Shown here piece after piece: positions 1 through 21,123 of a stretch of DNA of 64,000 nucleotides (positions are counted from its first letter, which is position 1; every line of letters begins with the position of its first letter). The translations under genes and the position numbers were made by a program. Under the pieces are notes generated by a model. That model was given only the letters and a program-made list of their open reading frames with translations. It had not been told where the DNA came from and searched no databases. This DNA is from a virus: IMG/VR virus record IMGVR_UViG_3300008261_000005, one strand, 5' to 3'.

Positions 1-68
1 ATATGCAAACACATTTTTCTGAACGCCAGTCAGTTGCAGTGCAGAGTAAGTTAAGTGTGTTTACATAT
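1..68 (+). repeat. Long-stem hairpin cassette A between tRNAs
   Basis: ATATGCAAACACATTT pairs with AAGTGTGTTTACATAT; ends exactly at the 5' end of the tRNA at 69. Confidence 0.6.
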
Positions 69-144
69 GGTAACGTAGCATAGTGGCTAATGCACCACCT
101 TCATACGGTGTTTATCGTTGGTTCGAGTCCCACCGTTACTACCA
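69..144 (+). tRNA. tRNA-Met/Ile2 (CAT)
   Basis: Acceptor GGTAACG/CGTTACT, loop TTCATAC, T-loop TTCGAGT, CCA end. Confidence 0.9.
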
Positions 145-147
145 AGT

Positions 148-361
148 TTTGTAAGTGTCAGCAAGAGAAAGTCACGCTGTCTAGGTTTCTTCGAAGGACC
201 GAAACAGTAGAAGGCGATGGGTTCGACTCCCACCTGGGCACGTAGTGTCCACGGGCAGAAGGTTGCAAGCTGGACAAGTATTCCAAGTGACGTACCGAGT
301 CCCGCTCGAGTTTATTACACGGGTGAATGGTTGCTATAACGATGGGGCAACTACTTACAAA
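148..361 (+). ncRNA. Candidate ~210-nt structured ncRNA
   Basis: 9-bp closing stem TTTGTAAGT/ACTTACAAA; internal T-loop GGGTTCGACTCCC; helices GTCAC/GTGAC, GGGCAC/GTGTCC, GTTGCT/GGCAAC; no CCA. Confidence 0.6.
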
Positions 362-429
362 TTCAACAGACCCCCGCCTTACAAGTTGTGCGGTGAACAA
401 CTTGTACTAATTCAACAAAGGAGAACGGC

Positions 430-450
430 ATGAAACGTACTAAACGTTAG
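430..450 (+). CDS. Possible minigene MKRTKR
   Basis: AAGGAG at 418-423, 6 nt before ATG; TAG at 448-450; flanked by hairpins. Confidence 0.35.
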   Translation: MKRTKR

Positions 451-510
451 TGTCACTCTAGATCCCCGTATGGTCTAGGGTTGGCACGTAAAATCAATTA
501 ATACGTACAA

Positions 511-586
511 CCCTGTTTAGCGTTAATGGTAGCGCACTTGACTCTTAATCAATGAGGTGTGAGTTCGAATCTCACAGCAGGGACCA
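511..586 (+). tRNA. tRNA-Lys (CTT)
   Basis: CCCTGTT/AGCAGGG, loop CTCTTAA, CCA. Confidence 0.95.
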
Positions 587-589
587 TAT

Positions 590-664
590 GGGGGTATAAT
601 TCAAAGGCTAGAATAGCCGGCTTTTAACCGGTCTATCAGGGTTCGAGTCCCTGTGCCCCTACCA
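590..664 (+). tRNA. tRNA-Lys (TTT)
   Basis: GGGGGTA/TGCCCCT, loop CTTTTAA, CCA. Confidence 0.93.
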
Positions 665-730
665 TATGAAAACATTCTAAAGACGTATAACGCAATGCCT
701 CTTGATGGCTAAGATAGAATGTTTCCATAT
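665..730 (+). repeat. Long-stem hairpin cassette B between tRNAs
   Basis: CATATGAAAACATTCTA/TAGAATGTTTCCATATG 17-bp stem with one mismatch, abutting tRNAs on both sides. Confidence 0.6.
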
Positions 731-805
731 GGTAACGTAGCATAATGGTTGTGCACCGCCTTCATACGGCGCCCGGTGTGAGTTCGAATCTCACCGTTAC
801 CACCA
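731..805 (+). tRNA. tRNA-Met/Ile2 (CAT), second copy
   Basis: GGTAACG/CGTTACC, loop TTCATAC, CCA; paralogue of 69-144. Confidence 0.9.
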
Positions 806-828
806 AAATAAGTTGTAAATAGTTTAAT

Positions 829-905
<77 letters not shown>

Positions 906-912
906 AGAATAT

Positions 913-986
913 GTATCTCTAATGTAATGGCAGCATGACAGTCTCCAAAACTGTTCGTCGGAGTTCGAGTCTCTGGAGGTACGCCA
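913..986 (+). tRNA. tRNA-Trp (CCA)
   Basis: GTATCTC/GAGGTAC, loop CTCCAAA, CCA. Confidence 0.93.
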
Positions 987-992
987 CAATAT

Positions 993-1066
993 GCGGGTAT
1001 GATGTAATGGTAACCTGAAACCTTGCCAAGGTTTATTCGCGAGTTCGATTCTCGCTACCCGCTCCA
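993..1066 (+). tRNA. tRNA-Gly (GCC)
   Basis: GCGGGTA/TACCCGC, loop TTGCCAA, T73, CCA. Confidence 0.95.
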
Positions 1067-1071
1067 ATTAC

Positions 1072-1145
1072 GCCCTTTTAGTATAATGGTATTACACCTG
1101 TTTTGTAATCAGGTTACGGCAGTTCGATTCTGTCATGGGGCACCA
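1072..1145 (+). tRNA. tRNA-Thr (TGT)
   Basis: GCCCTTT/ATGGGGC, loop TTTGTAA, CCA. Confidence 0.9.
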
Positions 1146-1149
1146 GTTA

Positions 1150-1264
1150 AGGATAGTAACAGCAAAAATTATAACTCACTTCTCTTGAAAAGAAAAGGAA
1201 CGGTTCGACTCCGTAGCCGCAAGGTTTGGTGTAACGGTAGCACTATGTTAAATTCTATCCTGTT
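1150..1264 (+). ncRNA. Y-RNA-like ncRNA Y1 with circularly permuted tRNA-like domain
   Basis: Closing stem AGGATAG/CTATCCT plus ACAGCAA; inside, T-arm ACGG-TTCGACT-CCGT, then AGCC-GCAA-GGTT, then D-arm GTGTAACGGTAGCAC (T before D). Confidence 0.75.
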
Positions 1265-1272
1265 TATTTTGT

Positions 1273-1346
1273 TGGCGGATTGTGTAATGGTAGCACAACA
1301 GACTTTGACTCTGTTAGCCTAGGTTCGATCCCTAGTCCGCCTGCCA
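1273..1346 (+). tRNA. tRNA-Gln (TTG)
   Basis: TGGCGGA/TCCGCCT, loop CTTTGAC, G73, CCA. Confidence 0.92.
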
Positions 1347-1351
1347 GCTAT

Positions 1352-1427
1352 GGTGTCTTTAGTGTAGTGGCCTGCACCCTGCTCTGTGAAAGCGGTAGTA
1401 CCGGATCGATACCGGTAAGGCACCCCA
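1352..1427 (+). tRNA. tRNA-His (GTG)
   Basis: G-1:C73 pair, GTGTCTT/AAGGCAC, loop CTGTGAA; T-loop ATCGATA has A54. Confidence 0.92.
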
Positions 1428-1432
1428 AATAC

Positions 1433-1506
1433 AGTTCCTTAGTTTAATGGTAGAACAGTGCGTTGACATCGCGCAGACAAAAGTTCAATTCTTTTAGGAA
1501 CTACCA
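1433..1506 (+). tRNA. tRNA-Val (GAC)
   Basis: AGTTCCT/AGGAACT, loop TTGACAT, CCA. Confidence 0.92.
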
Positions 1507-1512
1507 AATTTT

Positions 1513-1587
1513 GCCTCTGTAGTATAATGGATAATACACTGGTCTACGAAGCCGGGGATTGTGGTTCGATTCCATACAGAGGCACCA
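1513..1587 (+). tRNA. tRNA-Arg (ACG)
   Basis: GCCTCTG/CAGAGGC, loop CTACGAA, CCA. Confidence 0.95.
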
Positions 1588-1595
1588 AACAATAT

Positions 1596-1669
1596 GCTCT
1601 TATAGTTTAATGGTAGAACACTCGCTTGGTATGTGAGTAATCGTAGTTCGATTCTACGTAGGAGCACCA
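1596..1669 (+). tRNA. tRNA-Thr (GGT)
   Basis: GCTCTTA/TAGGAGC, loop TTGGTAT, CCA. Confidence 0.92.
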
Positions 1670-1670
1670 T

Positions 1671-1745
1671 ACCGCTTTCGTTCAATGGATAGGACAACAT
1701 TCTTCTAAAGTGTGAATAGTGGTTCGATTCCACTAAGCGGTACCA
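1671..1745 (+). tRNA. tRNA-Arg (TCT)
   Basis: ACCGCTT/AAGCGGT, loop CTTCTAA, CCA. Confidence 0.93.
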
Positions 1746-1762
1746 CTAGATTAAATACTTGT

Positions 1763-2014
1763 ATGAACTGGTATCCTATTGATAAAAATTTAAACTTTGC
1801 CCAAGAAATATTAGGCAATTCTGATCATGGCGCAGTTACTAATATGTACATAGAAGGACCGTTTGGAACTGTAAAGGCACACGACATAGGATATATTGAT
1901 GATGGATATTACGAACAGTATCCTGACAGACTTTGGGATTTGTACAAGTCTATCTTGTCAGTACTAGATGGACACTATCACTGTTGTTTGTCAGGCAAAG
2001 TTTGGAATCTTTGA
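1763..2014 (+). CDS. Hypothetical protein, 83 aa (leaderless)
   Basis: ATG 5 nt after TAAATA; ORF-track start at 1712 lies inside a tRNA. Confidence 0.55.
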   Translation: MNWYPIDKNLNFAQEILGNSDHGAVTNMYIEGPFGTVKAHDIGYIDDGYYEQYPDRLWDLYKSILSVLDGHYHCCLSGKVWNL

Positions 2015-2199
2015 AATTTTCTTTGTTGCCACCACATGAGCCACGGGCTGATGTGTGCCAAACTCATAACTAACCACATTATTGGCATTTCTAAGAAAAA
2101 ACCACCACAGATGTTGTGCGTGTAGAAATAACTTAATACAGCCCCTAATAAAAATATTGGGGCTGGAGACAAACTAAAAAATAGATTAATTTTTTTCAT
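1978..2199 (-). CDS. Small membrane protein, 73 aa
   Basis: Two hydrophobic segments; TAAATA just upstream on minus strand. Confidence 0.6.
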   Translation of the reverse strand: MKKINLFFSLSPAPIFLLGAVLSYFYTHNICGGFFLEMPIMWLVMSLAHISPWLMWWQQRKFQRFQTLPDKQQ

Positions 2200-2229
2200 A
2201 CAGTATTTAATCTATGTTAACGTTCTATT

Positions 2230-2306
2230 GCCCCACTGGCGCAATTGGTAGACGCGGCTCTCTCAAAAGGAGTGTGTTCCCCGTTCGAGTCGGGGGTGGG
2301 GTACCA
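2230..2306 (+). tRNA. tRNA-Leu (CAA) with short variable loop
   Basis: GCCCCAC/GTGGGGT, Leu-type D-loop, loop CTCAAAA, 5-nt variable loop GTGTT, A73, CCA. Confidence 0.88.
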
Positions 2307-2385
2307 AATTTAATTTTGTAGCATATTACCGATATGCATAGGCTAAAGTTAGAAAGTATTGTATAATAAGGACTGTTAAGCAAAT

Positions 2386-2471
2386 GCGAGTATGGTGAAA
2401 TTTGGTAGACACAAGAGACTTAAAATCTCTCGCCGCAAGGTGTCCCGGTTCGATCCCGGGTACTCGCACCA
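2386..2471 (+). tRNA. tRNA-Leu (TAA)
   Basis: GCGAGTA/TACTCGC, loop CTTAAAA, V-arm GCC-GCAA-GGT, CCA. Confidence 0.95.
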
Positions 2472-2479
2472 GAATTTAG

Positions 2480-2730
2480 TATCATTAGTAAGGGACTAAG
2501 GCTTATTAAGCGACCGTAAAAGGAATTGTACTGATGTGGAAAGTTAGTGCATATTACATCATAGATGTATTGCTTGTTTCAAAATGACGGCGGCGTTAAT
2601 AGCGTACAATGTTGAGGGACAATAGGCTCCATGTTAGGCTAGACTAGTAGAGCAAGTGCTATTAACACTTGGGATGCCTTGGGACTCATCGAGTCTAAAC
2701 CAAAATCTCTCAAGTCCTTTACTCATGATA
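2480..2730 (+). ncRNA. Candidate ~250-nt structured ncRNA
   Basis: 17-bp closing stem TATCATTAGTAAGGGAC/GTCCTTTACTCATGATA; internal GTTAATAGC/GCTATTAAC, TACATC/GATGTA, GACTC/GAGTC; abuts next tRNA. Confidence 0.6.
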
Positions 2731-2805
2731 CTCGTTATAGTTCAATGGATAGAACGAGTTCCTCCTAAGAATTAGATACAGGTTCGATTCCTGTTAACGG
2801 GACCA
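2731..2805 (+). tRNA. tRNA-Arg (CCT)
   Basis: CTCGTTA/TAACGGG, loop CTCCTAA, CCA. Confidence 0.92.
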
Positions 2806-2809
2806 ATTA

Positions 2810-2884
2810 CGGGCTTTGGTGAAATGGATATCATCTCGGTCTTCGAAACCGAGGGTGGGAGTTCGATCCTCTCAAGCCCGGCCA
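2810..2884 (+). tRNA. tRNA-Arg (TCG)
   Basis: CGGGCTT/AAGCCCG, loop CTTCGAA, CCA. Confidence 0.93.
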
Positions 2885-2903
2885 AAATATTTTCAATAGA
2901 CTG

Positions 2904-2932
2904 TTGACAAACAGTTGAAATCACTATATAAT
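2904..2932 (+). promoter_or_regulatory. sigma70-type promoter
   Basis: TTGACA-N17-TATAAT; ATG 6 nt downstream. Confidence 0.8.
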
Positions 2933-2938
2933 TGCACT

Positions 2939-3304
2939 ATGGAAATATTAATTGTTCTAATTTGGTTACAGGTAAAACATTGGATTGTAGACTTTGTTTT
3001 GCAAAGTGATGCACAGATAAAAGGCAAAGGCATATACGGAAATCGTATAGGAATCAGTCACAGTTTAGAACATGTAATCGGTACATTGGCAGCATTGTCC
3101 GTAGCAAGTTTTTACGTAGAACTTTCAGTATTTTGGATCATAGTAGCAGCCGCTGTAGATGGTGTATTACACTATCACATTGATTGGGCAAAAATGAATT
3201 GGGGTAATAGAGATATTACCACTAAAGCATTTTGGAATCATTTGGGTTTAGATCAAATGGCTCACCAAATTTGTTATTTGTTTTTAATCATTGTATTATT
3301 TTAA
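2939..3304 (+). CDS. DUF3307-like membrane protein (HxxxD metal-hydrolase-like)
   Basis: HWIVDFVLQ...K...SHSLEH...HYHIDWAK...DQMAH pattern with TM segments; start set at leaderless ATG 2939. Confidence 0.7.
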   Translation: MEILIVLIWLQVKHWIVDFVLQSDAQIKGKGIYGNRIGISHSLEHVIGTLAALSVASFYVELSVFWIIVAAAVDGVLHYHIDWAKMNWGNRDITTKAFWNHLGLDQMAHQICYLFLIIVLF

Positions 3305-3308
3305 TCTA

Positions 3309-3337
3309 TTGACATTGCTCTTAAGTGATGTTATAAT
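3309..3337 (+). promoter_or_regulatory. sigma70-type promoter for tRNA sub-array
   Basis: TTGACA-N17-TATAAT. Confidence 0.85.
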
Positions 3338-3344
3338 AGATACT

Positions 3345-3360
3345 TGTTCATTAAAAATTT
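3345..3360 (+). promoter_or_regulatory. rrn boxA-like antitermination site
   Basis: TGTTCATTAAAAATTT vs rrn boxA TGCTCTTTAACAATTT (13/16), directly after promoter. Confidence 0.5.
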
Positions 3361-3372
3361 AAAAGTTAATAT

Positions 3373-3448
3373 GCTCGGTTCGTCTATCGGTCTAGGACAC
3401 CGCCCTTTCACGGCGGGAAGAGGGGTTCGATTCCCCTACCGAGTACCA
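3373..3448 (+). tRNA. tRNA-Glu (TTC)
   Basis: GCTCGGT/ACCGAGT, loop CTTTCAC, CCA. Confidence 0.95.
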
Positions 3449-3523
3449 TATTAAAACACATTAGGCAACATCCGAGAATTCTGGAATCGTAAGGTGGCAT
3501 AGCCCCTAGTGTGTTTTAATATG
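3449..3523 (+). repeat. Long-stem hairpin cassette C
   Basis: CATATTAAAACACATTAGG/CCTAGTGTGTTTTAATATG 19-bp stem. Confidence 0.65.
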
Positions 3524-3527
3524 TTAT

Positions 3528-3610
3528 GCCCCGATGGTGGAATGGTAGACACGCTGGTCTTAGAAGCCAGTGCCTAGTGCGTGAGAGTTCGAGTCTCTCT
3601 TGGGGCACCA
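3528..3610 (+). tRNA. tRNA-Leu (TAG)
   Basis: GCCCCGA/TTGGGGC, loop CTTAGAA, long variable region, CCA. Confidence 0.93.
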
Positions 3611-3617
3611 AGTATAT

Positions 3618-3702
3618 GGAGTAGAAGCATCAATGGTGATGCAGTGGACTGTAAATCCGCCGCCTTCGGGCACGCCTGGTTCGATCCCAGGATACTCCAC
3701 CA
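3618..3702 (+). tRNA. tRNA-Tyr (GTA)
   Basis: GGAGTAG/ATACTCC, loop CTGTAAA, V-arm, CCA. Confidence 0.92.
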
Positions 3703-3707
3703 AATTA

Positions 3708-3797
3708 GGAAATGTGGCAGAGTCCGGTTTATTGCAACAGTCTTGAAAACTGTCGTGTCGAAAGGCACCGTGAGTTCGAATCTCACCGTTTCCGCCA
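3708..3797 (+). tRNA. tRNA-Ser (TGA)
   Basis: GGAAATG/CGTTTCC, loop CTTGAAA, long V-arm, G73, CCA. Confidence 0.95.
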
Positions 3798-3800
3798 AGT

Positions 3801-3939
3801 TTTGTTTATGTGTGTACGGTTATCCATATGTGAGTAGTGAGCTAACCAAGTCGCTTATTACTGTACCTGAAGCCCGTAGCAAGTCTGGCTCCATGCCGGA
3901 CTCAGCGCATGCCTTGGATAGTATGTGACGATAGACAAA
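3801..3939 (+). ncRNA. Candidate ~140-nt rod-like ncRNA
   Basis: TTTGTTTAT/ATAGACAAA, TGTAC/GTATG and TATCCA/TGGATA nested helices between two Ser tRNAs. Confidence 0.5.
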
Positions 3940-3947
3940 TTTTTTAT

Positions 3948-4035
3948 GGAGCATTGGCCGACCGGTTAAGGCAACAGATTGCTAATCTGTCATTCAGCAA
4001 TGGGTGAGTAGGTTCGATTCCTACATGCTCCGCCA
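3948..4035 (+). tRNA. tRNA-Ser (GCT)
   Basis: GGAGCAT/ATGCTCC, loop TTGCTAA, V-arm, CCA. Confidence 0.95.
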
Positions 4036-4056
4036 TTATTTTTAAAAAGGTAAAAT

Positions 4057-4284
4057 ATGATGAAACCAACTAGTACATATAAGATGAGTAGCATGACAAA
4101 AGCAAGTTTAGCATTATCTAAATGGAAAGACGCACATGCTCACGGACAGTGGAAACGTGCAATGATTGATGCAGAATTGTGCAGTAGAGTAGTTGTTAAG
4201 ACACGTGACCGCAATGACAAGCGACCACAAGGCACTGCATCATATGTAACAACAAGTAATAGCGCAACACCAAGCGCAGAGTAA
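4057..4284 (+). CDS. Hypothetical protein, 75 aa
   Basis: ORF with AAGG SD filling the gap between tRNAs. Confidence 0.55.
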   Translation: MMKPTSTYKMSSMTKASLALSKWKDAHAHGQWKRAMIDAELCSRVVVKTRDRNDKRPQGTASYVTTSNSATPSAE

Positions 4285-4291
4285 GAACTAT

Positions 4292-4367
4292 TCCGCAGTA
4301 GCTCAGTTGGTAGAGTAGAAGACTGTTAATCTTTTGGTCCGTGGTTCGAGCCCACGCTGTGGAGCCA
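4292..4367 (+). tRNA. tRNA-Asn (GTT)
   Basis: TCCGCAG/CTGTGGA, loop CTGTTAA, G73, CCA. Confidence 0.95.
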
Positions 4368-4368
4368 T

Positions 4369-4569
4369 ACCCCCGGTTTACACTTTAACGTTATTAAAGT
4401 GCGTCATTGCTAGATACGATAGTAGCACGGTGCATTGGATCTACCGCAAGGCTTGTTTAAAGCGACTTGAGAAATCACAAAGGCAGGAACGCTAACCCGT
4501 CTAAATAGAAAAATACGTGGACAGAGTAACAGCTCAGTTTAGGGCCTATGTGGTGTAGGTAGCTAGACA
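4369..4569 (+). ncRNA. Possible structured ncRNA (~200 nt, no ORF)
   Basis: Hairpins CACTTTAA/TTAAAGTG, TGCTA/TAGCA, CCTAT/GTAGG; no clear terminal stem. Confidence 0.35.
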
Positions 4570-4660
4570 CTTTAATCAAATACATTTAGCTTAACTATAA
4601 GTTAGGTTGTAAGGACTGCACACCACCGTTGAGAAAAGTGCTAAGTGTGTTTGATTAAAG
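4570..4660 (+). repeat. Long-stem hairpin cassette D
   Basis: CTTTAATCAAATACATTTAGC/GCTAAGTGTGTTTGATTAAAG 21-bp stem with two G-U pairs. Confidence 0.65.
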
Positions 4661-4664
4661 TTAT

Positions 4665-4740
4665 CGCGGGGAAGGTCTGGTCACTAGCGAGGTCTCATAA
4701 GCCTTTGCCATCCTTGGTTCGAATCCAAGTCCCGCAACCA
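4665..4740 (+). tRNA. Initiator-like tRNA-fMet (CAT), atypical D-arm
   Basis: C1-A72 mismatch (CGCGGGG/TCCCGCA), loop CTCATAA, CCA; A8 and weak D-stem. Confidence 0.8.
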
Positions 4741-4763
4741 ATTAGTGTAATAAGTAAGTTTAT

Positions 4764-4838
4764 GCCGGTTTAGCTCAGTGGTAGAGCATCCGCCTTGTAA
4801 GCGGGAGGTCGTCAGTTCAATCCCGACAACCGGCACCA
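4764..4838 (+). tRNA. tRNA-Thr (TGT), second copy
   Basis: GCCGGTT/AACCGGC, loop CTTGTAA, CCA. Confidence 0.95.
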
Positions 4839-4846
4839 AGGACTTT

Positions 4847-5032
4847 ATGATAGTAACCTCTGTACGTAATGTTTGGGATATGGTTAGTGACCGTTATCGT
4901 AAAACGGTCTATAGGACTGTGGAAGATCCTGTAACACAAAAACAATACATTGAAACAGAAAGATATCTCTATGATAAAACCGGAACAGTAAAACAAAATG
5001 ATACCGGTAACAATATAGATAAAAAAGTTTAA
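4847..5032 (+). CDS. Hypothetical protein, 61 aa
   Basis: ATG after AAGGA; track start 4778 lies in a tRNA. Confidence 0.5.
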   Translation: MIVTSVRNVWDMVSDRYRKTVYRTVEDPVTQKQYIETERYLYDKTGTVKQNDTGNNIDKKV

Positions 5033-5034
5033 TT

Positions 5035-5111
5035 CGGAGTGTGGCGCAGTCTGGTAGCGCACCTGGTTTGGGACCAGGGGGTCCAAGGTTCGAATCCTTG
5101 TACTCCGACCA
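5035..5111 (+). tRNA. tRNA-Pro (TGG)
   Basis: CGGAGTG/TACTCCG, loop TTTGGGA, CCA. Confidence 0.95.
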
Positions 5112-5112
5112 T

Positions 5113-5188
5113 GGGGGATTAGCTCAGTTGGGAGAGCGGCTGCTTTGCAAGCAGTAGGTCGCAGGTTCGATCCCTGTATCCTCCACCA
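5113..5188 (+). tRNA. tRNA-Ala (TGC)
   Basis: GGGGGAT/ATCCTCC with G3-U70, loop TTTGCAA, CCA. Confidence 0.95.
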
Positions 5189-5204
5189 ATTTTAGGAAAT
5201 GGAA

Positions 5205-5375
5205 ATGCAAGTTAGGGTAAAAGAAAACGAAAAAGAATTTGGTCGATGCGGGTGCGGTCGTAGCCCAACTGGCAAGTGTTGCGGCTGGCATGGACTAACG
5301 GAAGAAGAATTTGCACAGCGTAAGGAACTTTACGAAACAGGTAAAGCAGACTTAGCTGGTCGAGAAATAAAATAA
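5205..5375 (+). CDS. CDGSH-like iron-sulfur mini-protein, 56 aa (not in ORF track)
   Basis: MQVRVKENEKEFGRCGCGRSPTGKCCGWHGLTEE...; C-x-C-x2-S...C-x-G-x-H resembles the CDGSH motif; AGGA SD. Confidence 0.65.
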   Translation: MQVRVKENEKEFGRCGCGRSPTGKCCGWHGLTEEEFAQRKELYETGKADLAGREIK

Positions 5376-5381
5376 AAATAT

Positions 5382-5455
5382 GCGGGGTTCGTATAGTGGT
5401 AATACCTTAGCCTTCCAAGCTAATGCTGAGAGTTCGATTCTCTTACCCCGCTCCA
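5382..5455 (+). tRNA. tRNA-Gly (TCC)
   Basis: GCGGGGT/ACCCCGC, loop CTTCCAA, T73, CCA. Confidence 0.95.
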
Positions 5456-5461
5456 CTTACT

Positions 5462-5553
5462 GCCAGCGAGACTTGGTAGTCAGAGAGGTTTTATAAACCT
5501 TTTAGCGCCAGATTAGCGTTCTTGAGAGGGTTCGATTCCCTCCGCTGGTACCA
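5462..5553 (+). tRNA. Non-canonical tRNA with TAT anticodon (Ile AUA-reading by anticodon), long V-arm
   Basis: GCCAGCG/CGCTGGT, minimal D-arm GAC-TTGGTA-GTC, loop TTTATAA, V-arm AGCGC/GCGTT, T-arm GAGGG/CCCTC, CCA. Confidence 0.75.
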
Positions 5554-5559
5554 AAATAC

Positions 5560-5588
5560 TTGACGTAGTACAAGTAGTTTGTTATAAT
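5560..5588 (+). promoter_or_regulatory. sigma70-type promoter
   Basis: TTGACG-N17-TATAAT. Confidence 0.75.
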
Positions 5589-5610
5589 AGTTACTTACTT
5601 AGGAGATAAC

Positions 5611-5841
5611 ATGGCTACACGATACTCAAGTCGAGGTCCAGAGATTGACACAGATAAATGTGTTAAACTTACAAATCAAAATAGATTTCAATTAGTTCTA
5701 GTGGCAGCTGCTCGAGCACGTGAAATCAAACGTGAAGCAGTTAAAAATGGCAACTACACAATGTTACCTATCGTGTCAGCACTTCTTGAAATACAAGAAG
5801 GTAAAGTTGATGCAAATGCATATTTAAATAAATTAAGATAA
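5611..5841 (+). CDS. rpoZ: RNA polymerase omega subunit-like protein
   Basis: NRFQLVLVAAARAREI...PIVSALLEIQEGKV matches the omega pattern; strong AGGAG SD. Confidence 0.7.
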   Translation: MATRYSSRGPEIDTDKCVKLTNQNRFQLVLVAAARAREIKREAVKNGNYTMLPIVSALLEIQEGKVDANAYLNKLR

Positions 5842-5847
5842 GAATTT

Positions 5848-5922
5848 GCCTGGTTAGCTCAGGGGTAGAGCAACGCCTTTACACGGCGAAGGTCCGCGGT
5901 TCGAAACCGTGACCAGGTACCA
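5848..5922 (+). tRNA. tRNA-Val (TAC)
   Basis: GCCTGGT/ACCAGGT, loop TTTACAC, CCA. Confidence 0.95.
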
Positions 5923-5927
5923 AATAT

Positions 5928-6004
5928 GTGGGTGTGCCGCTGAATGGTTAGGCCCCGGATTGCAAATCCGTTTTATGCAGGTTCGAGTCCTGTCACCCAC
6001 TCCA
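5928..6004 (+). tRNA. tRNA-Cys (GCA)
   Basis: GTGGGTG/CACCCAC, loop TTGCAAA, T73, CCA. Confidence 0.93.
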
Positions 6005-6035
6005 AAATATATTTTAGCAGTTTAGCCAAAATATA

Positions 6036-6064
6036 ATGACAAACTATTGTAGATCAACTATAAT
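6036..6064 (+). promoter_or_regulatory. sigma70-type promoter of ncRNA array/TROVE-like operon
   Basis: ATGACA-N17-TATAAT. Confidence 0.65.
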
Positions 6065-6098
6065 AGTCGTATAGCAAGTAACAATGCTAAAGAGTTTT

Positions 6099-6266
6099 AG
6101 GATCGGTACAGCAACATTCATATACTATGAACCGTTGGTCACTGTGGTAGTTAACTGGAGCAGAGTGCGTAAAACCACCGAGCATTGAAGGGGAACTATT
6201 GAAACAAACCAACAAGCTCAGAGTGATGGCCTGAGTAAAATAAAAGCAGTCAACAACGATCCTGTT
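6099..6266 (+). ncRNA. ACAGCAA-motif ncRNA Y2
   Basis: AGGATCG-GT-ACAGCAA ... CGATCCT-GTT. Confidence 0.7.
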
Positions 6267-6272
6267 AGTCAT

Positions 6273-6402
6273 AGGATGACTACAGCAATTTAAACTACAT
6301 CTTAATGCTATAGAAGGTGGTCGGAGGACAGGCAGAAATGCTTTCTAGAAATAGACACTGATAGAATAGATAGGTCCAGAGAATCTGCACGATCATCCTG
6401 TT
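6273..6402 (+). ncRNA. ACAGCAA-motif ncRNA Y3
   Basis: AGGATGA-CT-ACAGCAA ... TCATCCT-GTT. Confidence 0.7.
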
Positions 6403-6408
6403 AAATTT

Positions 6409-6463
6409 AGAATGTTAACAGCAACTTTAACTTTTTCGCTATAAAAGAAAAAACACATTCTGT
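6409..6463 (+). ncRNA. ACAGCAA-motif ncRNA Y4 (minimal, abuts RBS)
   Basis: AGAATGT-TA-ACAGCAA ... ACATTCT-GT, inner hairpin CTTTT-TCGCTAT-AAAAG; followed by AAAGGA SD. Confidence 0.65.
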
Positions 6464-6475
6464 AAAGGAAATATC

Positions 6476-7882
6476 ATGAACGCATTTGTAAATGCAGTAG
6501 CAAATCAAGAAGCCCGTACCGCAAACGGTATGAAGGCTCGTAAGTCAACAGCCAAGGCTACAGTTGACTTGTTCTACAAGATCGGCGCAAGCCGTGGTAA
6601 GGACATCACAGGCGACTTCACAGCCGCCTACGTAGAAAACTCTGATGTAGCACTACGCATCGCACAATGGGCACGTGATGTCCGCGGTGGCGCAGGCGAA
6701 CGTCAATTGTTCCGCGATATTCTAGTACATCTAGAAAAGCGTGACCCAGACGCCGCTTTGGCTCTTCTAAAGAAGATTCCAGAAGTTGGTCGTTGGGATG
6801 ACATCTTTGTCTTCTCTAACCCTGACCTGAAGTCAGCCGCTTATACCATGTTGGGTGATGCCCTACGTGCTAAGAACGGTTTGGCTGCAAAGTGGACTCC
6901 TCGTAAGGGTCAAATTGCCGCTGAAGTTCGTGCCTTCTTTGGCATGACTCCAAAGCAATATCGTAAGAGTCTTGTTACTCTTACAAAGGTTGTTGAAACC
7001 CAAATGTGTGCAGGAGATTGGGATAACATCAATTTCAGTCACGTTCCTTCTGTAGCTGCTCGCAACTACAAGAAGGCATTCAACCGTCACACACCAGCAT
7101 TTGCTGAGTATGTGGCCAAGTTGGTAAGTGGTGATAAGACTGTCAAGGTTAACGCCAGCGCAATCTTCCCACATGACGTACTGAAGGGAATCGCTCACAG
7201 CTACAACAAGCTGAACAAGACAGAAATTGACCATGTGATCGCACAATGGGACGCTCTGCCTAACTACGTAGGTGACGCAAGTATCCTGCCTCTAGTTGAC
7301 GTATCTGGTTCGATGACAACATCTGTTCCGGGTTCGACTGTTCGTTGTTTGGATGTTGCGGTTGGCCTAGGCTTGTACTTGGCTGATAAGAACAAGGGTG
7401 TGTTCAAGGACACATTCTTGACTTTCTCCAGCAAGCCACAACTTGTTACTCTAAAGGGTAACATTGTTGACAAGGTAACCCAAATGTCTAAGAGTGATTG
7501 GGAAATGAGCACTAACTTGCATGCCGCTATGGACAAGATCCTAAGCGTTGCAGTTAAGGGTTCAGTACCAGCAAGCGACATGCCAAAGATGTTGCTGATC
7601 TTGTCAGACATGCAGTTTAACCAATGCGCCCGTTTCGACGACAGCGCAATGGAAATGATCGAACGCAAGTTTGAAACTGCTGGCTATGTTGTGCCACAAA
7701 TTGTTTTCTGGAACCTAAACAGTTCAGACAATGTGCCTGTTAAGGCAGACAAGAGTGGTGCCGCATTGGTAAGTGGATTTAGCCCAAGCATCATGACAGC
7801 ACTGCTGTCAGCGGATATGGACCAATTCACTCCAGAAGGTATCATGCTTAAGACTGTAATGGTCCCACGCTACGATATCTAA
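6476..7882 (+). CDS. TROVE/Ro60-like protein with C-terminal vWA domain (DUF2828-type)
   Basis: RDVRGGAGER, GRWDD, AAKWTPR in helical N-terminal part; vWA MIDAS DVSGSM, LILSDMQF, PQIVFWNL. Confidence 0.8.
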   Translation: MNAFVNAVANQEARTANGMKARKSTAKATVDLFYKIGASRGKDITGDFTAAYVENSDVALRIAQWARDVRGGAGERQLFRDILVHLEKRDPDAALALLKKIPEVGRWDDIFVFSNPDLKSAAYTMLGDALRAKNGLAAKWTPRKGQIAAEVRAFFGMTPKQYRKSLVTLTKVVETQMCAGDWDNINFSHVPSVAARNYKKAFNRHTPAFAEYVAKLVSGDKTVKVNASAIFPHDVLKGIAHSYNKLNKTEIDHVIAQWDALPNYVGDASILPLVDVSGSMTTSVPGSTVRCLDVAVGLGLYLADKNKGVFKDTFLTFSSKPQLVTLKGNIVDKVTQMSKSDWEMSTNLHAAMDKILSVAVKGSVPASDMPKMLLILSDMQFNQCARFDDSAMEMIERKFETAGYVVPQIVFWNLNSSDNVPVKADKSGAALVSGFSPSIMTALLSADMDQFTPEGIMLKTVMVPRYDI

Positions 7883-7898
7883 AAAACATTGTTTTTGA

Positions 7899-7924
7899 AT
7901 AGCACCTTCGGGTGCTATTTTTTT
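7899..7924 (+). terminator. Rho-independent terminator
   Basis: ATAGCACC-TTCG-GGTGCTAT followed by T run. Confidence 0.9.
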
Positions 7925-7932
7925 AGGTGTGT

Positions 7933-7988
7933 TGTTGTAAAAATACAACAACCAATTCGTTGACTAAATTTGTTTTTGATTGTATAAT
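7933..7988 (+). promoter_or_regulatory. TGTTG-N8-CAACA palindrome plus sigma70 promoter
   Basis: Palindrome 7933-7950; TTGACT-N17-TATAAT 7960-7988. Confidence 0.65.
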
Positions 7989-7994
7989 AGTGGT

Positions 7995-8240
7995 ATGAAA
8001 AAAATATATAATGTAATATGGAAGGACACAAGCAATGTTGTTTGTGATAAAGAATTTGATGGCTTAACACCAGCGATGAATTGGGCTAAGACATTGGACT
8101 ACTTTGTCACCATTAGAGGTGGTGAATTTGAAGTAGTTGGTAAATTTGGAGTTGACAGCGTAGAGGACGGTAAGTGTCCAGATGGTGTCGCTTATGATTG
8201 GAACAAAGCATCACGTATTGGTGCAACACGGAGAAGATAA
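7995..8240 (+). CDS. Hypothetical protein (leaderless)
   Basis: ATG 6 nt after -10; stop overlaps next ATG. Confidence 0.65.
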   Translation: MKKIYNVIWKDTSNVVCDKEFDGLTPAMNWAKTLDYFVTIRGGEFEVVGKFGVDSVEDGKCPDGVAYDWNKASRIGATRRR

Positions 8241-8707
8241 TGCCATGGATTGAAAATGTAGCCGCAAGTGATATCCCTATTGGATTTCATCACGATGCTG
8301 GCCCAAACAGTATGCTGATTAGCATTGTGGATCCAGCCAGCTGGCGTCCTGAAGCCAAGCATCAGTTCAAAGAGCGTCACAACTTTGAGTTCCTTGATGT
8401 AGAAGAAAACGACCATGTTGATGATGAAGCAATGAAGTGTAGTCATGAGCAGGCCGCAGAGCTTGTTCGCTTGCTACAACACGCATTGGAAAATCGTATG
8501 AATGTTGTTGTTCATTGCTATGCTGGTATTTGTAGATCGGGTGCGGTTTGTGAAGTTGGAGTCATGATGGGATTCAATGACACAGAGAGGTTTCGTAGTC
8601 CAAACTTGCTAGTCAAGCATCGCATGATGAAGGTACTGGGCTGGACGTATGACGCAGATGAAAAACCCAATATTGATGACTGGCGAACGTTTAAACCTGT
8701 TGCATAA
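8240..8707 (+). CDS. Protein-tyrosine-phosphatase-like (CX5R) protein
   Basis: VVHCYAGICRSGAV = HCxxGxxRS; start at coupled ATG 8240. Confidence 0.8.
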   Translation: MPWIENVAASDIPIGFHHDAGPNSMLISIVDPASWRPEAKHQFKERHNFEFLDVEENDHVDDEAMKCSHEQAAELVRLLQHALENRMNVVVHCYAGICRSGAVCEVGVMMGFNDTERFRSPNLLVKHRMMKVLGWTYDADEKPNIDDWRTFKPVA

Positions 8708-8764
8708 AAACAACACTTATCATCGTATTCTCTAGTTGACAAGTCTAGTTTTTGACTGTATAAT
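8698..8764 (+). promoter_or_regulatory. Second TGTTG-N8-CAACA palindrome plus sigma70 promoter
   Basis: Palindrome 8698-8715; TTGACA-N17-TATAAT 8736-8764. Confidence 0.65.
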
Positions 8765-8796
8765 ATACACATACACTAACAAAACAGGAGTAGAAA

Positions 8797-9081
8797 ATGA
8801 AACAAAATCATACCATGTACATCTACAAAGCAGACAAGCGTACCAAAAGTGGTGAACGTCTTGTTTCAACTACAGTTTGGCAACATCGCGATGAAGCAGA
8901 AATGAAGCGCGAAGTGCGTGAATTGCAATACGAACTTTATCCTACAAGATTGGGTTTTCGAATTGAGTTTCATCCAACAACAGTAACAGTTAAAAATTTG
9001 ATGACCGGTAAAGACGTCCAAATTGATCGCGACACTCCTTGGTGTTGCAATCCAGCTTCGGAGTCATACTGGTCCATGTAA
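8797..9081 (+). CDS. Hypothetical protein
   Basis: AGGAG SD, own promoter. Confidence 0.7.
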   Translation: MKQNHTMYIYKADKRTKSGERLVSTTVWQHRDEAEMKREVRELQYELYPTRLGFRIEFHPTTVTVKNLMTGKDVQIDRDTPWCCNPASESYWSM

Positions 9082-9091
9082 AGGAGTCAGT

Positions 9092-9289
9092 ATGATGATT
9101 GTAGCAAAATTTAAAGATAAGATTGTACAGATCGTTCGGGTTACTGAGACTGTACAATTTTCACAAGACAAGGGCTGGATTTTGGTCTGCTTTGATTTCG
9201 ATAAGCCAATGCGTAAACGAGATCACATCAAGTGGGTAAAAGCCAGCGAAACACAATTTGAATGGGTCCGCGAGTTTGCGGGAGAATAA
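9092..9289 (+). CDS. Hypothetical protein
   Basis: AAGGAG SD before ATG 9092. Confidence 0.65.
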   Translation: MMIVAKFKDKIVQIVRVTETVQFSQDKGWILVCFDFDKPMRKRDHIKWVKASETQFEWVREFAGE

Positions 9290-9290
9290 A

Positions 9291-9839
9291 ATGAAAACAT
9301 GGATCACAAGTGACTTGCACTTTGGTCATGCTAACATTATGAAATTTTGCCCTGTAACAAGGGCAAGATTCAACAACGATGTAAAGTACATGACTGAAGG
9401 CATGATTACAGAATGGAATGAAAGAGTAGGCCGTGATGATTTGGTCTACATCTTGGGCGACGTGGCTTTTTGTTCGGCAAGTGATGCGGCAAAGATCATG
9501 CGTCGATTGAATGGTCGTAAGATATTGGTAGAAGGCAACCATGACCGCAAGTTGGTCAAGGATGTGAGTTTTCAAAATGAGTTTGAAGAAATCCACAAGT
9601 ATTTGGATATCAACTATGATGGTCACAAGATCGTCATGTTTCACTATCCAATTAGCGAGTGGGATCAAATGCACAGAGGTAGCTTGCAGTTTCACGGACA
9701 TTTACATGGCAATGCCAGTGGCTTGGAAAAGTATCGAGCCAAGGATGTGGGGTTTGACTCTACAGGCGAAATTGTAATGTCTATGGAACGTGCCATCGGC
9801 AGTATCAAAAACAACGAAGTAAAAGGACATCATGTATGA
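9291..9839 (+). CDS. Calcineurin-like metallophosphoesterase
   Basis: SDLHFGH, LGD, GNHD, HYP, HGHLH motifs. Confidence 0.88.
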   Translation: MKTWITSDLHFGHANIMKFCPVTRARFNNDVKYMTEGMITEWNERVGRDDLVYILGDVAFCSASDAAKIMRRLNGRKILVEGNHDRKLVKDVSFQNEFEEIHKYLDINYDGHKIVMFHYPISEWDQMHRGSLQFHGHLHGNASGLEKYRAKDVGFDSTGEIVMSMERAIGSIKNNEVKGHHV

Positions 9840-10069
9840 GATGCGAGGATGAAAGCCATTTACCAGTAGCAGAACAAAGCCTAGTGTTCCGCTTGTACAA
9901 ACGAGCAGAAATACGTAGGCAGATTCCGGGAAGATTAGCAGTAGTAGAAGGTAAGCCTGATAAGATTGCTAACCTTCTAGAAGAGGCTGCAATGGAAATT
10001 CAAATGCTACAAGCAACTATTGTCGAAATTAGTAAGCATACCAAAGGAAGGGATAATTTTCAACCATGA
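9836..10069 (+). CDS. Hypothetical protein
   Basis: Translationally coupled ORF. Confidence 0.65.
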   Translation: MRCEDESHLPVAEQSLVFRLYKRAEIRRQIPGRLAVVEGKPDKIANLLEEAAMEIQMLQATIVEISKHTKGRDNFQP

Positions 10070-20752: not shown

Positions 20753-21123
20753 TGACAAACCCGTTTAGAGATCAAGAAAAATTTATGAAGGCCTGTGGTC
20801 AAAGTGTTGACAAATATAATCAACAACAATACCTCATGTATGTGGGCCTAATCGAAGAAGAATCAAAAGAGTTTGATCAAGCTCTTTTGGATAATGATAG
20901 AGTTGAACAATTAGATGCTCTTATAGACATACTAGTTGTCACTATTGGTGCTATCCATAGTGGCGGATTTGATGCAGAAGGTGCTTGGAAAGAAGTTATG
21001 AGTACAAACTTTGCCAAGATTGATAAAGATACCGGACTTGTGCGCAAGCGTGAAGATGGTAAAGTACTAAAGCCAATTGGCTGGACTGCTCCAGAATTGG
21101 CGCAATTTATTAAAGGAGAATGA
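20752..21123 (+). CDS. MazG-like nucleotide pyrophosphohydrolase
   Basis: LIEEESKE...DALIDIL...EVMSTNFAK...REDGKVLKP. Confidence 0.8.
   Translation: MTNPFRDQEKFMKACGQSVDKYNQQQYLMYVGLIEEESKEFDQALLDNDRVEQLDALIDILVVTIGAIHSGGFDAEGAWKEVMSTNFAKIDKDTGLVRKREDGKVLKPIGWTAPELAQFIKGE

What the first reader, a model, noticed from the sequence alone, without database searches (positions are those of the whole stretch)
1150..1264. Circularly permuted tRNA mimic (YrlA-like topology) hidden in the tRNA array
Seen: inside the ACAGCAA stem the order is T-arm (ACGG-TTCGACT-CCGT), a short acceptor-like stem capped by GCAA (AGCC/GGTT), then a D-arm GTGTAACGGTAGCAC almost identical to the D-arm of the neighbouring tRNA-Gln. 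There is no CCA end. AATT(A)TAAC/GTTAAATT extends the closing stem in place of an anticodon stem. A hairpin TTCT-CTTGAAA-AGAA in the variable position carries the same 7-nt loop as tRNA-Ser(TGA) at 3708. Established: YrlA-class bacterial Y RNAs have this T-before-D permuted tRNA domain on a Ro-binding stem. This independently supports the Y-RNA reading of the 6099-6463 elements. The anticodon-like loop could be a decoy for host anticodon nucleases (inference).
Basis: partly seen in the sequence, partly recalled or inferred. Interest (0 to 1): 0.85.

Follow-up and report, generated by a model that had tools for sequence, protein, structure and literature searches.

The report
Permuted tRNA mimic on Ro-partner RNA
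A 114-base RNA gene hidden among a large phage's tRNA genes is a rearranged, closed-end tRNA look-alike on a conserved RNA "handle", and is most likely a partner RNA of the phage's Ro60-shaped protein, a pairing absent from Rfam and from the papers I searched.

Summary
Window 1151-1264 (+) has a 6-bp terminal stem, a bulged ACAGCAA, a hairpin with a 7-nt anticodon-like loop, a T arm, a 4-bp acceptor-like stem closed by GCAA, a canonical D arm, the 3' stem strand and UGUU. Fifteen distinct homologues keep every pair, with two compensatory changes. Sister RNAs with the same handle and T-acceptor-D order covary strongly (10 of 16 pairs).

The 468-aa neighbour (6476-7882; DUF2828/DUF7788) is predicted to fold like Ro60. 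Three sibling handle RNAs lie directly upstream of it. In a sister lineage a related tRNA mimic ends less than 100 nt before the gene's start codon.

It is not a member of Rfam YrlA. That model gives no hit at E<=10, and ACAGCAA replaces GNCGAA. The handle instead resembles dictyostelid Class I RNAs. Protein binding, expression and the anticodon-nuclease decoy idea remain untested.

Earlier notes of this scan report the same handle/Ro-like pairing on other DNA (96 notes, at least 86 genomes). I found no Rfam family or paper describing it. Verdict: a new variant of the Ro/Y-RNA kind.

The parts
1146..1150 (+). 5-nt leader between the CCA end of tRNA-Thr (ends 1145) and the handle
   Evidence: In homologues the element starts 4-7 nt after whichever tRNA CCA end lies upstream.
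1151..1156 (+). Handle stem, 5' strand (GGAUAG)
   Evidence: Pairs with 1255-1260. Invariant within this class. Positions 5-6 covary between classes: AG/CT, GC/GC, AC/GT, GT/AC, CG/CG, GA/TC.
1157..1165 (+). 2-nt spacer (UA) plus the conserved bulged motif ACAGCAA
   Evidence: CAGCAA is invariant in 15 homologues. The motif is shared with the RNAs at 6108, 6282 and 6418.
1167..1175 (+). Weak second stem, 5' strand (AAUUAUAAC)
   Evidence: Can pair with 1247-1254. Only the inner UAAC/GUUA part is kept in homologues, and it is not significant against shuffles.
1180..1194 (+). V hairpin: 4-bp stem with the 7-nt anticodon-like loop CUUGAAA
   Evidence: Compensatory U-A/A-U change in 6 of 15 sequences. 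The loop is CUUGAAA, CUGUAAA or CUGAAAA in homologues.
1200..1214 (+). T arm (ACGG-UUCGACU-CCGU)
   Evidence: A-U to G-C compensatory change in 5 of 15 sequences. The T stem covaries across 26 sequences of all classes. G53, T54, T55, C56, A58 and C61 equivalents are invariant.
1215..1226 (+). Acceptor-like stem closed by a GNRA loop (AGCC-GCAA-GGUU); no free ends and no CCA
   Evidence: The loop is GCAA or GAAA, and one A-U changes to G-U. Sister classes have 5-8-bp closed stems that covary (6 of 7 pairs).
1227..1228 (+). UG linker at the tRNA positions 8-9
   Evidence: The U is invariant in the class. The matching T is nearly invariant in sister classes.
1229..1243 (+). D arm (GUGU-AACGGUA-GCAC) with A14, G18, G19 and A21 equivalents
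   Evidence: Invariant in the class. One base differs from the tRNA-Gln D arm.
1247..1254 (+). Weak second stem, 3' strand (GUUAAAUU)
1255..1260 (+). Handle stem, 3' strand (CUAUCC)
1261..1272 (+). UGUU tail and U-rich spacer up to the 5' end of tRNA-Gln (1273)
   Evidence: UGUU is invariant. RNase P cleavage of tRNA-Gln would set the 3' end (inference).
6100..6266 (+). Sibling handle RNA 1 (GGAUCG-GU-ACAGCAA ... CGAUCC-UGUU)
   Evidence: A promoter-like site at 6036-6064 matches 11 of 12 consensus bases.
6274..6402 (+). Sibling handle RNA 2 (GGAUGA-CU-ACAGCAA ... UCAUCC-UGUU)
6410..6464 (+). Sibling short handle RNA 3 (GAAUGU-UA-ACAGCAA ... ACAUUC-UGUA)
   Evidence: Weak full-length match to Rfam Dicty_Class_I_RNA: 23.3 bits against a gathering score of 41.5.
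6476..7882 (+). Ro60-like protein gene (DUF2828 + DUF7788/vWA), the proposed protein partner
   Evidence: Pfam families. AlphaFold model with pLDDT 91.7. The top 12 Foldseek PDB hits are all Ro60/TROVE, E 1.7e-8 to 7e-6. The DxSxS MIDAS residues D275, S277 and S279 are invariant. Terminator-like site at 7897-7920.
149..388 (+). Tentative further relative: 8-bp end stem, UCAGCAA, internal T arm; the tail is not UGUU
   Evidence: Not followed up.

Best explanation
The element is a stable small non-coding RNA with two modules.

Module 1 is a 'handle': a 6-bp stem joining the 5' and 3' ends, a 2-nt spacer, an unpaired ACAGCAA, and a 3' UGU(U). Module 2 is a circularly permuted tRNA body (V hairpin, T arm, loop-closed acceptor stem, D arm). 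It keeps the nucleotides that build the tRNA elbow but cannot be aminoacylated.

Shown here:
- The helices are conserved and covary.
- The handle is strand-specific.
- The handle is confined to the tRNA/Ro region of a relative's genome.
- The neighbouring protein is predicted to have a Ro60 fold.

Inferred:
- The RNA is transcribed within the tRNA cluster 511-1745. tRNA processing releases it: 3' trimming of tRNA-Thr at 1145 and RNase P cleavage at tRNA-Gln 1273.
- The handle binds the Ro60-like protein encoded at 6476-7882, as Y RNAs bind Ro60.
- The displayed tRNA-like module recruits a tRNA-recognising factor or occupies the ring. This would direct the particle to tRNA or structured-RNA surveillance or repair during infection, perhaps with the phage's kinase and phosphoesterase genes just downstream.
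For: Structure:
- Every tested pair is kept in 15 homologues, with two compensatory pairs. RNAalifold agrees.
- In 16 sister RNAs, 10 of 16 pairs show double changes and 99.2% of cells pair; 0 of 500 shuffles reach this. The T stem covaries across 26 sequences.
- Equivalents of U8, A14, G18-G19, A21, G53, T54-T55-C56, A58 and C61 are invariant.

Handle:
- On the gene's strand, 214 of 319 ACAGCAA sites have the exact complement of the upstream 6-mer within 300 nt downstream. The upstream control gives 15 of 319 and the opposite strand 2 of 74.
- In a 299.6-kb relative, all 8 handle matches lie in one 8.4-kb stretch on one strand.

Partner:
- The protein model has pLDDT 91.7, and its top 12 PDB fold matches are all Ro60/TROVE.
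- Three handle RNAs abut the gene in the window.
- A search that started from the RNA pattern found 34 handle-type tRNA mimics. Fifteen had the gene in the fetched locus, all on the same strand, and 11 end less than 100 nt before its start codon. None of 6 tRNA-dimer false positives had the gene.
- Handle RNAs also lie near the gene in four cultured phages: BUCT-ZZ01, RSP15, Citrobacter Ci1 and Rhizobium RHph_I1_18.

Analogy and context:
- YrlA has the same V-T-AS-D order beside Ro60 (PMC4201824). The phiLo phage Ro60 binds two RNAs encoded upstream of its gene (PMC12135203).
- No promoter or terminator lies next to the element; it sits 5 nt after one tRNA and 8 nt before the next.
- A PNK-like kinase and phosphoesterases lie just downstream.
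Against:
- The element lies 5.2 kb from the gene, not beside it.
- Rfam YrlA gives no hit at E<=10, and the YrlA/Ro GNCGAA motif is absent.
- The protein has no Pfam TROVE hit and only marginal sequence matches to Ro60 (E 0.036-0.1).
- Five of nine cultured phages that carry the gene showed no clear handle RNA within 3-6 kb.
- The second stem is weak, and folding energy is not exceptional.
Confidence: 0.65

Rival explanations
1. It is a tRNA-shaped decoy or sponge that acts alone. The V hairpin mimics an anticodon stem-loop and the elbow mimics tRNA, so the RNA soaks up host anticodon nucleases or other tRNA-targeting defence proteins without needing the Ro-like protein.
For: The 7-nt loop keeps CU-NNN-AA while the middle triplet differs between close relatives: UGA, GUA and GAA here; UCU, UAU and GCA in a sister class. 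The element sits in a tRNA array of a phage that carries its own near-complete tRNA set. End-healing-type genes lie nearby.
Against: The hairpin stem has only 4 bp. This reading does not explain the conserved handle shared with RNAs that lack any tRNA part, nor its linkage to the Ro-like gene. No nuclease target is identified.
Confidence: 0.12
2. It is a processing or spacer element of the tRNA operon. The handle and tRNA-like fold serve only to guide RNase P, RNase Z or RNase E cuts, or to insulate neighbouring tRNAs. The excised piece has no function of its own.
For: It abuts tRNA ends on both sides and has no promoter or terminator of its own. Handle elements occur between tRNAs in many relatives.
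Against: Most tRNA junctions in the array have no such element. The same handle heads three RNAs that have their own promoter and lie next to the Ro-like gene, away from tRNAs. Invariance of ACAGCAA and UGUU points to a specific binding partner.
Confidence: 0.1
3. It is a true permuted tRNA gene. Its transcript would be cut in the acceptor loop, given CCA and charged, as in the permuted tRNA genes of the red alga Cyanidioschyzon (recalled from memory, not checked here) or as in M. smegmatis YrlA, which is cut by RNase P and receives CCA.
For: All tRNA core nucleotides are present. Sister classes have 7-8-bp closed acceptor stems, some with UCCAU or UUCAU loops. M. smegmatis YrlA with a 7-bp stem is cleaved and CCA-tailed (PMC4201824).
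Against: In this element the acceptor stem has only 4 bp and is closed by a stable GNRA tetraloop, with no discriminator base or CCA. The candidate anticodon stem has 4 bp. ARAGORN and the Rfam tRNA model do not call it.
Confidence: 0.04
4. It is a decayed junction of two tandem tRNA genes: the 3' half of one pseudogene followed by the 5' half of the next, with no function.
For: Tandem tRNAs give T-before-D order, and they matched my DNA pattern as false positives (6 of 40 pattern-derived loci classified).
Against: Only 14 nt separate the T and D stems, and those bases form a complementary stem with a GNRA loop. Compensatory changes and near-invariance across 15 homologues argue for selection. 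The element is framed by the conserved handle.
Confidence: 0.02

Closest known systems
YrlA, the tRNA-like bacterial and mycobacteriophage Y RNA bound by Ro60/Rsr (Rfam RF02553; Chen et al. 2014, PMC4201824)
   Same: A terminal 5'/3' stem with a short conserved single-stranded motif on the 5' side. The same order of V, T, closed acceptor-like (AS) and D stem-loops. tRNA elbow nucleotides are kept. It is encoded on the same strand as a Ro60-fold protein, together with further non-tRNA-like sibling RNAs (compare YrlB).
   Different: The motif is ACAGCAA plus a 3' UGU, not GNCGAAN0-1G. The RF02553 model gives no hit at E<=10; a sister element in L007 reaches 33 bits against a gathering score of 69. 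The protein belongs to DUF2828/DUF7788, not Pfam TROVE. The element sits in a tRNA array 5.2 kb from the gene. Relatives carry up to 8 handle RNAs, with several different permutation points.
Yrl1 and Yrl2 of Thermus phage phiLo with phage Ro60 (PMC12135203; PDB 9KOP, 9L5Y)
   Same: A phage-encoded Ro60-fold protein with small RNAs encoded upstream of its gene. The RNAs have a stem, a bulge with a conserved motif, and a second stem. 9KOP is the best fold match of the window's protein.
   Different: The phiLo RNAs carry a CGAA motif and, in the passages I read, are not described as having a tRNA-like domain. The phiLo protein is a recognisable TROVE protein.
Class I RNAs of dictyostelid social amoebae (Rfam RF01414; Kjellin et al. 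2021, PMC7919456)
   Same: A 6-bp covarying stem joins the ends. A conserved motif ending in ACAGCAA lies next to the 5' strand. The 3' end is CUGU, whose C pairs with the 5' G. The interior is variable. The sibling RNA at 6410-6462 aligns full-length to the model, with these features in register.
   Different: Class I RNAs are 42-65 nt, eukaryotic, have their own DUSE promoter and no tRNA-like insert. The score here is below the gathering score (23.3 against 41.5), and the 114-nt element itself gives no hit. Common descent is not shown.
Canonical tRNA and naturally permuted tRNA genes
   Same: D arm, T arm and core tertiary nucleotides. The D arm is one base away from that of the phage's own tRNA-Gln.
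   Different: The acceptor stem has 4 bp and is loop-closed. There is no CCA and no proper anticodon arm. tRNA finders do not call it.

Membership tests
YrlA (Rfam RF02553; Chen et al. 2014) | V, T, AS (closed acceptor-like) and D stem-loops in that order inside a 5'/3' stem | tested here: met
   Sequence; pair counts; RNAalifold.
YrlA (Rfam RF02553; Chen et al. 2014) | Conserved nucleotides that allow tRNA-like tertiary contacts (U8, A14, G18-G19, T54-Psi55-C56, A58) | tested here: met
   The equivalent positions are invariant in 15 homologues. The contacts themselves were not probed.
YrlA (Rfam RF02553; Chen et al. 2014) | GNCGAAN0-1G motif near the 5' end | tested here: not met
   The conserved motif is (A/U)CAGCAA.
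YrlA (Rfam RF02553; Chen et al. 2014) | Covariance-model score at or above the gathering score (69 bits) | tested here: not met
   No hit at E<=10 in 1-8000 or in 1140-1275. Sister element L007:7886-8011 scores 33 bits, E 0.002.
YrlA (Rfam RF02553; Chen et al. 2014) | Encoded within about 4 kb of a Ro60 orthologue and on the same strand | tested here: inconclusive
   Same strand, but 5.2 kb upstream. Related tRNA mimics in a sister lineage end less than 100 nt before the gene.
YrlA (Rfam RF02553; Chen et al. 2014) | The partner is a TROVE-domain Ro60/Rsr protein | tested here: inconclusive
   No Pfam TROVE hit; vWA_Ro60 at E 0.051. The fold search gives Ro60/TROVE as all top 12 hits.
YrlA (Rfam RF02553; Chen et al. 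2014) | Bound by Ro60 in vivo and modified by TruB and DusA | not testable with these tools
   Needs experiments.
CAGCAA-handle RNAs beside DUF2828 Ro-like genes (no Rfam family or paper found; noted before by this scan) | 6-bp covarying end stem, 1-3-nt spacer, NCAGCAA, 3' strand followed by UGU; same strand as the gene and clustered with it | tested here: met
Dictyostelid Class I RNA (Rfam RF01414) | 6-bp end stem, motif ending ACAGCAA next to the 5' strand, CUGU at the 3' end | tested here: met
   Sequence compared with the description in PMC7919456.
Dictyostelid Class I RNA (Rfam RF01414) | Length 42-65 nt and model score at or above 41.5 bits | tested here: not met
   The element is 114 nt and gives no hit. 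The sibling at 6410-6462 scores 23.3 bits.
tRNA (Rfam RF00005; ARAGORN) | 7-bp acceptor stem with free 5' and 3' ends, and an anticodon arm between the D and T arms | tested here: not met
   Not called by either tool. The acceptor stem has 4 bp and is closed by GCAA.

The most novel reading that the evidence does not exclude
The ACAGCAA handle may be an ancient, portable docking module for DUF2828-type Ro-like rings, on which phages mount exchangeable cargo. The cargo would include permuted tRNA bodies whose anticodon-like triplet is swapped between close relatives. The particle would act as a bait or adaptor that couples tRNA-targeting host defences, or damaged tRNAs, to phage end-healing and ligation enzymes. 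The same docking module may also underlie the unexplained Class I RNAs of social amoebae.
Probability: 0.12. Interest if true: 0.9.

Novelty: new variant of a known kind. Interest (0 to 1): 0.7.

Why it matters
Ro60/Y-RNA particles are known in animals, in about 5% of bacteria and in a few phages. Their tRNA-like Y RNAs (YrlA) remain functionally unexplained.

tblastn matched this DUF2828-type protein in 711 phage records of the collection searched, yet no RNA partner is reported for it in Rfam or the papers I searched. A conserved handle that marks its candidate partner RNAs has two consequences if it holds. It would assign a role to many unannotated or "pseudo-tRNA" genes in phage tRNA islands. 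It would also offer cultured systems (BUCT-ZZ01, RSP15, Citrobacter Ci1, Rhizobium RHph_I1_18) for testing what a tRNA mimic on a Ro ring does during infection.

The resemblance of the handle to dictyostelid Class I RNAs, if it reflects a shared protein partner, would make a long-open question directly testable.

Tried and rejected
- Rfam YrlA gave no hit on the element, either in 8 kb or in 136 nt at E<=10.
- A sequence search of the protein against PDB found nothing. A profile search gave only marginal Ro60 hits.
- The window's own assembly is not held. The nearest record held is a 30-kb fragment with no useful match.
- The second stem (AAUUAUAAC/GUUAAAUU) was tested by duplex energy against shuffles and is not significant. 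The alternative pairings UAACA/UGUUA and AGCA/UGUU, proposed by MFE folding and RNAalifold, are not kept in variants and show no covariation.
- The MAFFT alignment across all classes (A3) misplaced the D arm of the short-acceptor classes, so I used it only for the T stem.
- My handle search found no clear handle RNA within 3-6 kb of the gene in Vibrio nt-1, Stenotrophomonas DLP_6, Ochrobactrum OC, Klebsiella fENko-Kae01 or Pseudomonas Milchi. That search required a perfect 6-bp stem, so this is weak negative evidence.
- I considered the pseudogene and tRNA-dimer readings and rejected them (see rivals).
- I did not test whether Dictyostelium encodes a DUF2828 protein.

Full report
**What is there.** The window opens with a dense phage tRNA array: 30 tRNAs by ARAGORN and two more by Rfam, all on the + strand between 69 and 6001. 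tRNA-Thr ends at 1145 and tRNA-Gln starts at 1273. Neither tool calls the 127 nt between them.

Read directly, the stretch contains, in order:
- GGATAG (1151-1156), then TA;
- ACAGCAA (1159-1165), then an A/T-rich stretch;
- a hairpin TTCT-CTTGAAA-AGAA (1180-1194);
- a T arm ACGG-TTCGACT-CCGT (1200-1214);
- a 4-bp stem closed by a GNRA loop, AGCC-GCAA-GGTT (1215-1226), then TG;
- a D arm GTGT-AACGGTA-GCAC (1229-1243);
- GTTAAATT (1247-1254), CTATCC (1255-1260) and TGTT.

That includes the one-base difference from the D arm of tRNA-Gln and the identity of the 7-nt loop with the anticodon loop of tRNA-Ser(TGA).

**Is it real?** Single-sequence folding is unremarkable (z = -1.0), so the case rests on comparison with related sequences.

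The element is conserved at 87-100% identity in related IMG/VR contigs. I collected 15 distinct versions (alignment A2). All 22 pairs of the five clear helices are kept in all sequences. There are compensatory changes in the hairpin (U-A/A-U, 6 sequences) and in the T stem (A-U/G-C, 5 sequences). The covariation score is reached by 0 of 500 shuffles, and pairing collapses when the partners are slid. RNAalifold finds the same helices without guidance. The acceptor loop alternates between GCAA and GAAA.

The positions equivalent to U8, A14, G18-G19, A21, G53, T54-T55-C56, A58 and C61 are invariant.

Only 4-6 AU pairs (UAAC/GUUA) persist, and they are not distinguishable from shuffled controls.

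**It belongs to a large family.** The frame GGAUNN-NN-ACAGCAA ... NNAUCC-UGUU recurs up to eight times per related phage locus. The sizes fall into classes of about 50, 110-130, 160 and 225-260 nt.

An unbiased count on 80 loci oriented by the neighbouring protein gene gave these results:
- On the gene's strand, 214 of 319 ACAGCAA sites have the exact reverse complement of the 6-mer that lies 2 nt upstream, within 300 nt downstream.
- The same test looking upstream gave 15 of 319.
- On the opposite strand it gave 2 of 74.

In a 299.6-kb relative, all eight matches fall in one 8.4-kb stretch on one strand.

Several paralogous classes carry a tRNA body in the same T, closed-acceptor, D order, but with different sequences and 5-8-bp acceptor stems. 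In 16 such sequences, 10 of 16 pairs show changes on both sides and 99.2% of cells pair. The T stem covaries across all 26 sequences compared. The permutation point differs between classes. In some, an anticodon-like arm follows the D arm. In others, a true anticodon stem merges into the closing stem.

**The neighbour.** The 468-aa protein at 6476-7882 matches Pfam DUF2828 and DUF7788 and has only a faint vWA_Ro60 hit.

With a 69-sequence alignment, AlphaFold gave pLDDT 91.7. The top 12 Foldseek matches in PDB are all Ro60/TROVE proteins: the phage phiLo Ro60, Xenopus and human Ro60, and Deinococcus Rsr. Their E-values run from 1.7e-8 to 7e-6, over the full length. The MIDAS DxSxS residues are invariant.

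Three handle RNAs (6100-6266, 6274-6402, 6410-6464) lie between a near-consensus promoter (6036-6064) and this gene, and a terminator follows it.

Linkage also holds when the search starts from the RNA. A DNA pattern for T arm plus D arm found 34 handle-type elements. Fifteen had the Ro-like gene in the fetched locus, all on the same strand. Eleven, from a class with the handle GGUUAA-GUU-CCGCAA, end less than 100 nt before its start codon. None of six tRNA-dimer false positives had the gene.

Handle RNAs also sit near the gene in four cultured phages: BUCT-ZZ01 (three in tandem upstream), RSP15, Citrobacter Ci1 and Rhizobium RHph_I1_18 (three in tandem). Five other cultured phages showed none within the flanks examined.

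**How it most likely works.** The element has no promoter or terminator of its own and abuts tRNA ends, so tRNA processing should release it (inference).

By analogy with Ro60 and Y RNAs, the handle would dock on the Ro-like ring. The analogy rests on two papers: Chen et al. 2014 (PMC4201824) for YrlA, with its V-T-AS-D order, and PMC12135203 for phage phiLo. The displayed tRNA body would then recruit a tRNA-recognising factor or gate the ring.

Genes just downstream encode a dual-specificity phosphatase-like protein, two metallophosphoesterases and a kinase that matches the polynucleotide-kinase PHROG. RNA ligase, CCA-adding enzyme or kinase genes flank the homologous gene in other phages. 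This fits an RNA-repair or surveillance setting, but it is context only.

It is untested.

**Comparison with what is known.** In topology and context this works like YrlA.

It is not a member of Rfam YrlA. The model gives no hit at E<=10, even on 136 nt, and GNCGAA is replaced by ACAGCAA. A sister element in L007 does reach 33 bits (E 0.002, full length) against the YrlA model, which is still below the gathering score.

The handle matches the description of dictyostelid Class I RNAs: a 6-bp end stem, a motif ending in ACAGCAA and a CUGU 3' end (PMC7919456). The short sibling at 6410-6462 aligns full-length to that Rfam model at 23.3 bits, below the gathering score of 41.5. I treat this as a resemblance, not as shown homology.

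**Novelty and earlier notes.** Tool-less and follow-up notes of this scan report the same handle/Ro-like pairing on other DNA: 96 notes in at least 86 genomes. My tests were made independently on this window and agree with them.

I found no Rfam family and no paper that describes RNA partners of DUF2828 proteins. I rate this a new variant of the Ro/Y-RNA kind.

Confidence that this is a conserved structured RNA with a permuted tRNA body is about 0.9. Confidence that it partners the Ro-like protein is about 0.65.

Noticed in passing
window 149-388 (+): An RNA candidate of about 240 nt directly after tRNA-Met. It has an 8-bp end stem (TTGTAAGT/ACTTACAA), UCAGCAA after the 5' strand and an internal T arm (GGGTTCGACTCCC). 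It may be a diverged handle RNA, comparable to YrlB, which also has a T arm.
   Followed up: partly
window 8198-10527 (+): Directly downstream of the Ro-like gene lie a dual-specificity-phosphatase-like protein (8198-8707), a metallophosphoesterase (9258-9839) and a P-loop kinase matching the polynucleotide-kinase PHROG (10066-10527). Together they look like an RNA end-healing set. A second metallophosphoesterase is at 15044-15898 and an ATP-dependent ligase at 19436-20752.
   Followed up: partly
L127 (Klebsiella phage fENko-Kae01), L129 (Rhizobium phage RHph_I1_18), L125 (Citrobacter phage Ci1), L124 (Stenotrophomonas phage DLP_6): In other phages the homologous gene is flanked by annotated RNA ligase, RNA ligase 2, nucleotidyltransferase or CCA-adding enzyme, kinase and metallophosphoesterase genes. 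The RNA-repair neighbourhood therefore recurs.
   Followed up: partly
L125:8012-8275 (Citrobacter phage Ci1): The record annotates a 114-nt 'tRNA-Pseudo-AAC / tRNA-OTHER' 0.6 kb after the Ro-like gene. Next to it, at 8143-8275, lies a handle element (GGATGA-CT-ACTGCAT ... TCATCC-TGTC) with T, closed-acceptor and D arms. Public annotations may be mislabelling such RNAs as pseudo-tRNAs.
   Followed up: partly
L090:4520-4800 (Synechococcus phage BUCT-ZZ01, downstream of its DUF2828 gene): Two tRNA-like genes in normal D-before-T order share a roughly 30-nt insert in the anticodon region that contains CATTCTGTAAAGAATG. This recalls the CTGTAAA loop variant of the element studied here.
   Followed up: no
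L009, L011, L029, L074 and others: Sister tRNA mimics have 7-8-bp closed acceptor stems, some with UCCAU or UUCAU loops. By analogy with M. smegmatis YrlA, RNase P might cut them and CCA might be added.
   Followed up: no
window 3618-3699 and 5928-6001 (+): Rfam calls two tRNAs that ARAGORN missed (33.6 and 46.3 bits). By eye their anticodons are GUA (Tyr) and GCA (Cys).
   Followed up: no
window 6260-6290 and 6396-6424 (+): The UGUU tail of each tandem handle RNA can pair with the ACAG of the next one (CTGTTAGTCAT...ATGACTACAG; CTGTTAA...TTAACAG). These inter-unit hairpins might be processing sites or alternative folds.
   Followed up: no
window 17016-17636, 18790-19377, 21077-21823, 27077-27574, 28435-29457 (+): Two ClpP-like protease genes, a Bax-inhibitor-1 family membrane protein, a QueD/PTPS-like gene and a UvdE UV endonuclease. 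These are the auxiliary genes of a large phage.
   Followed up: no
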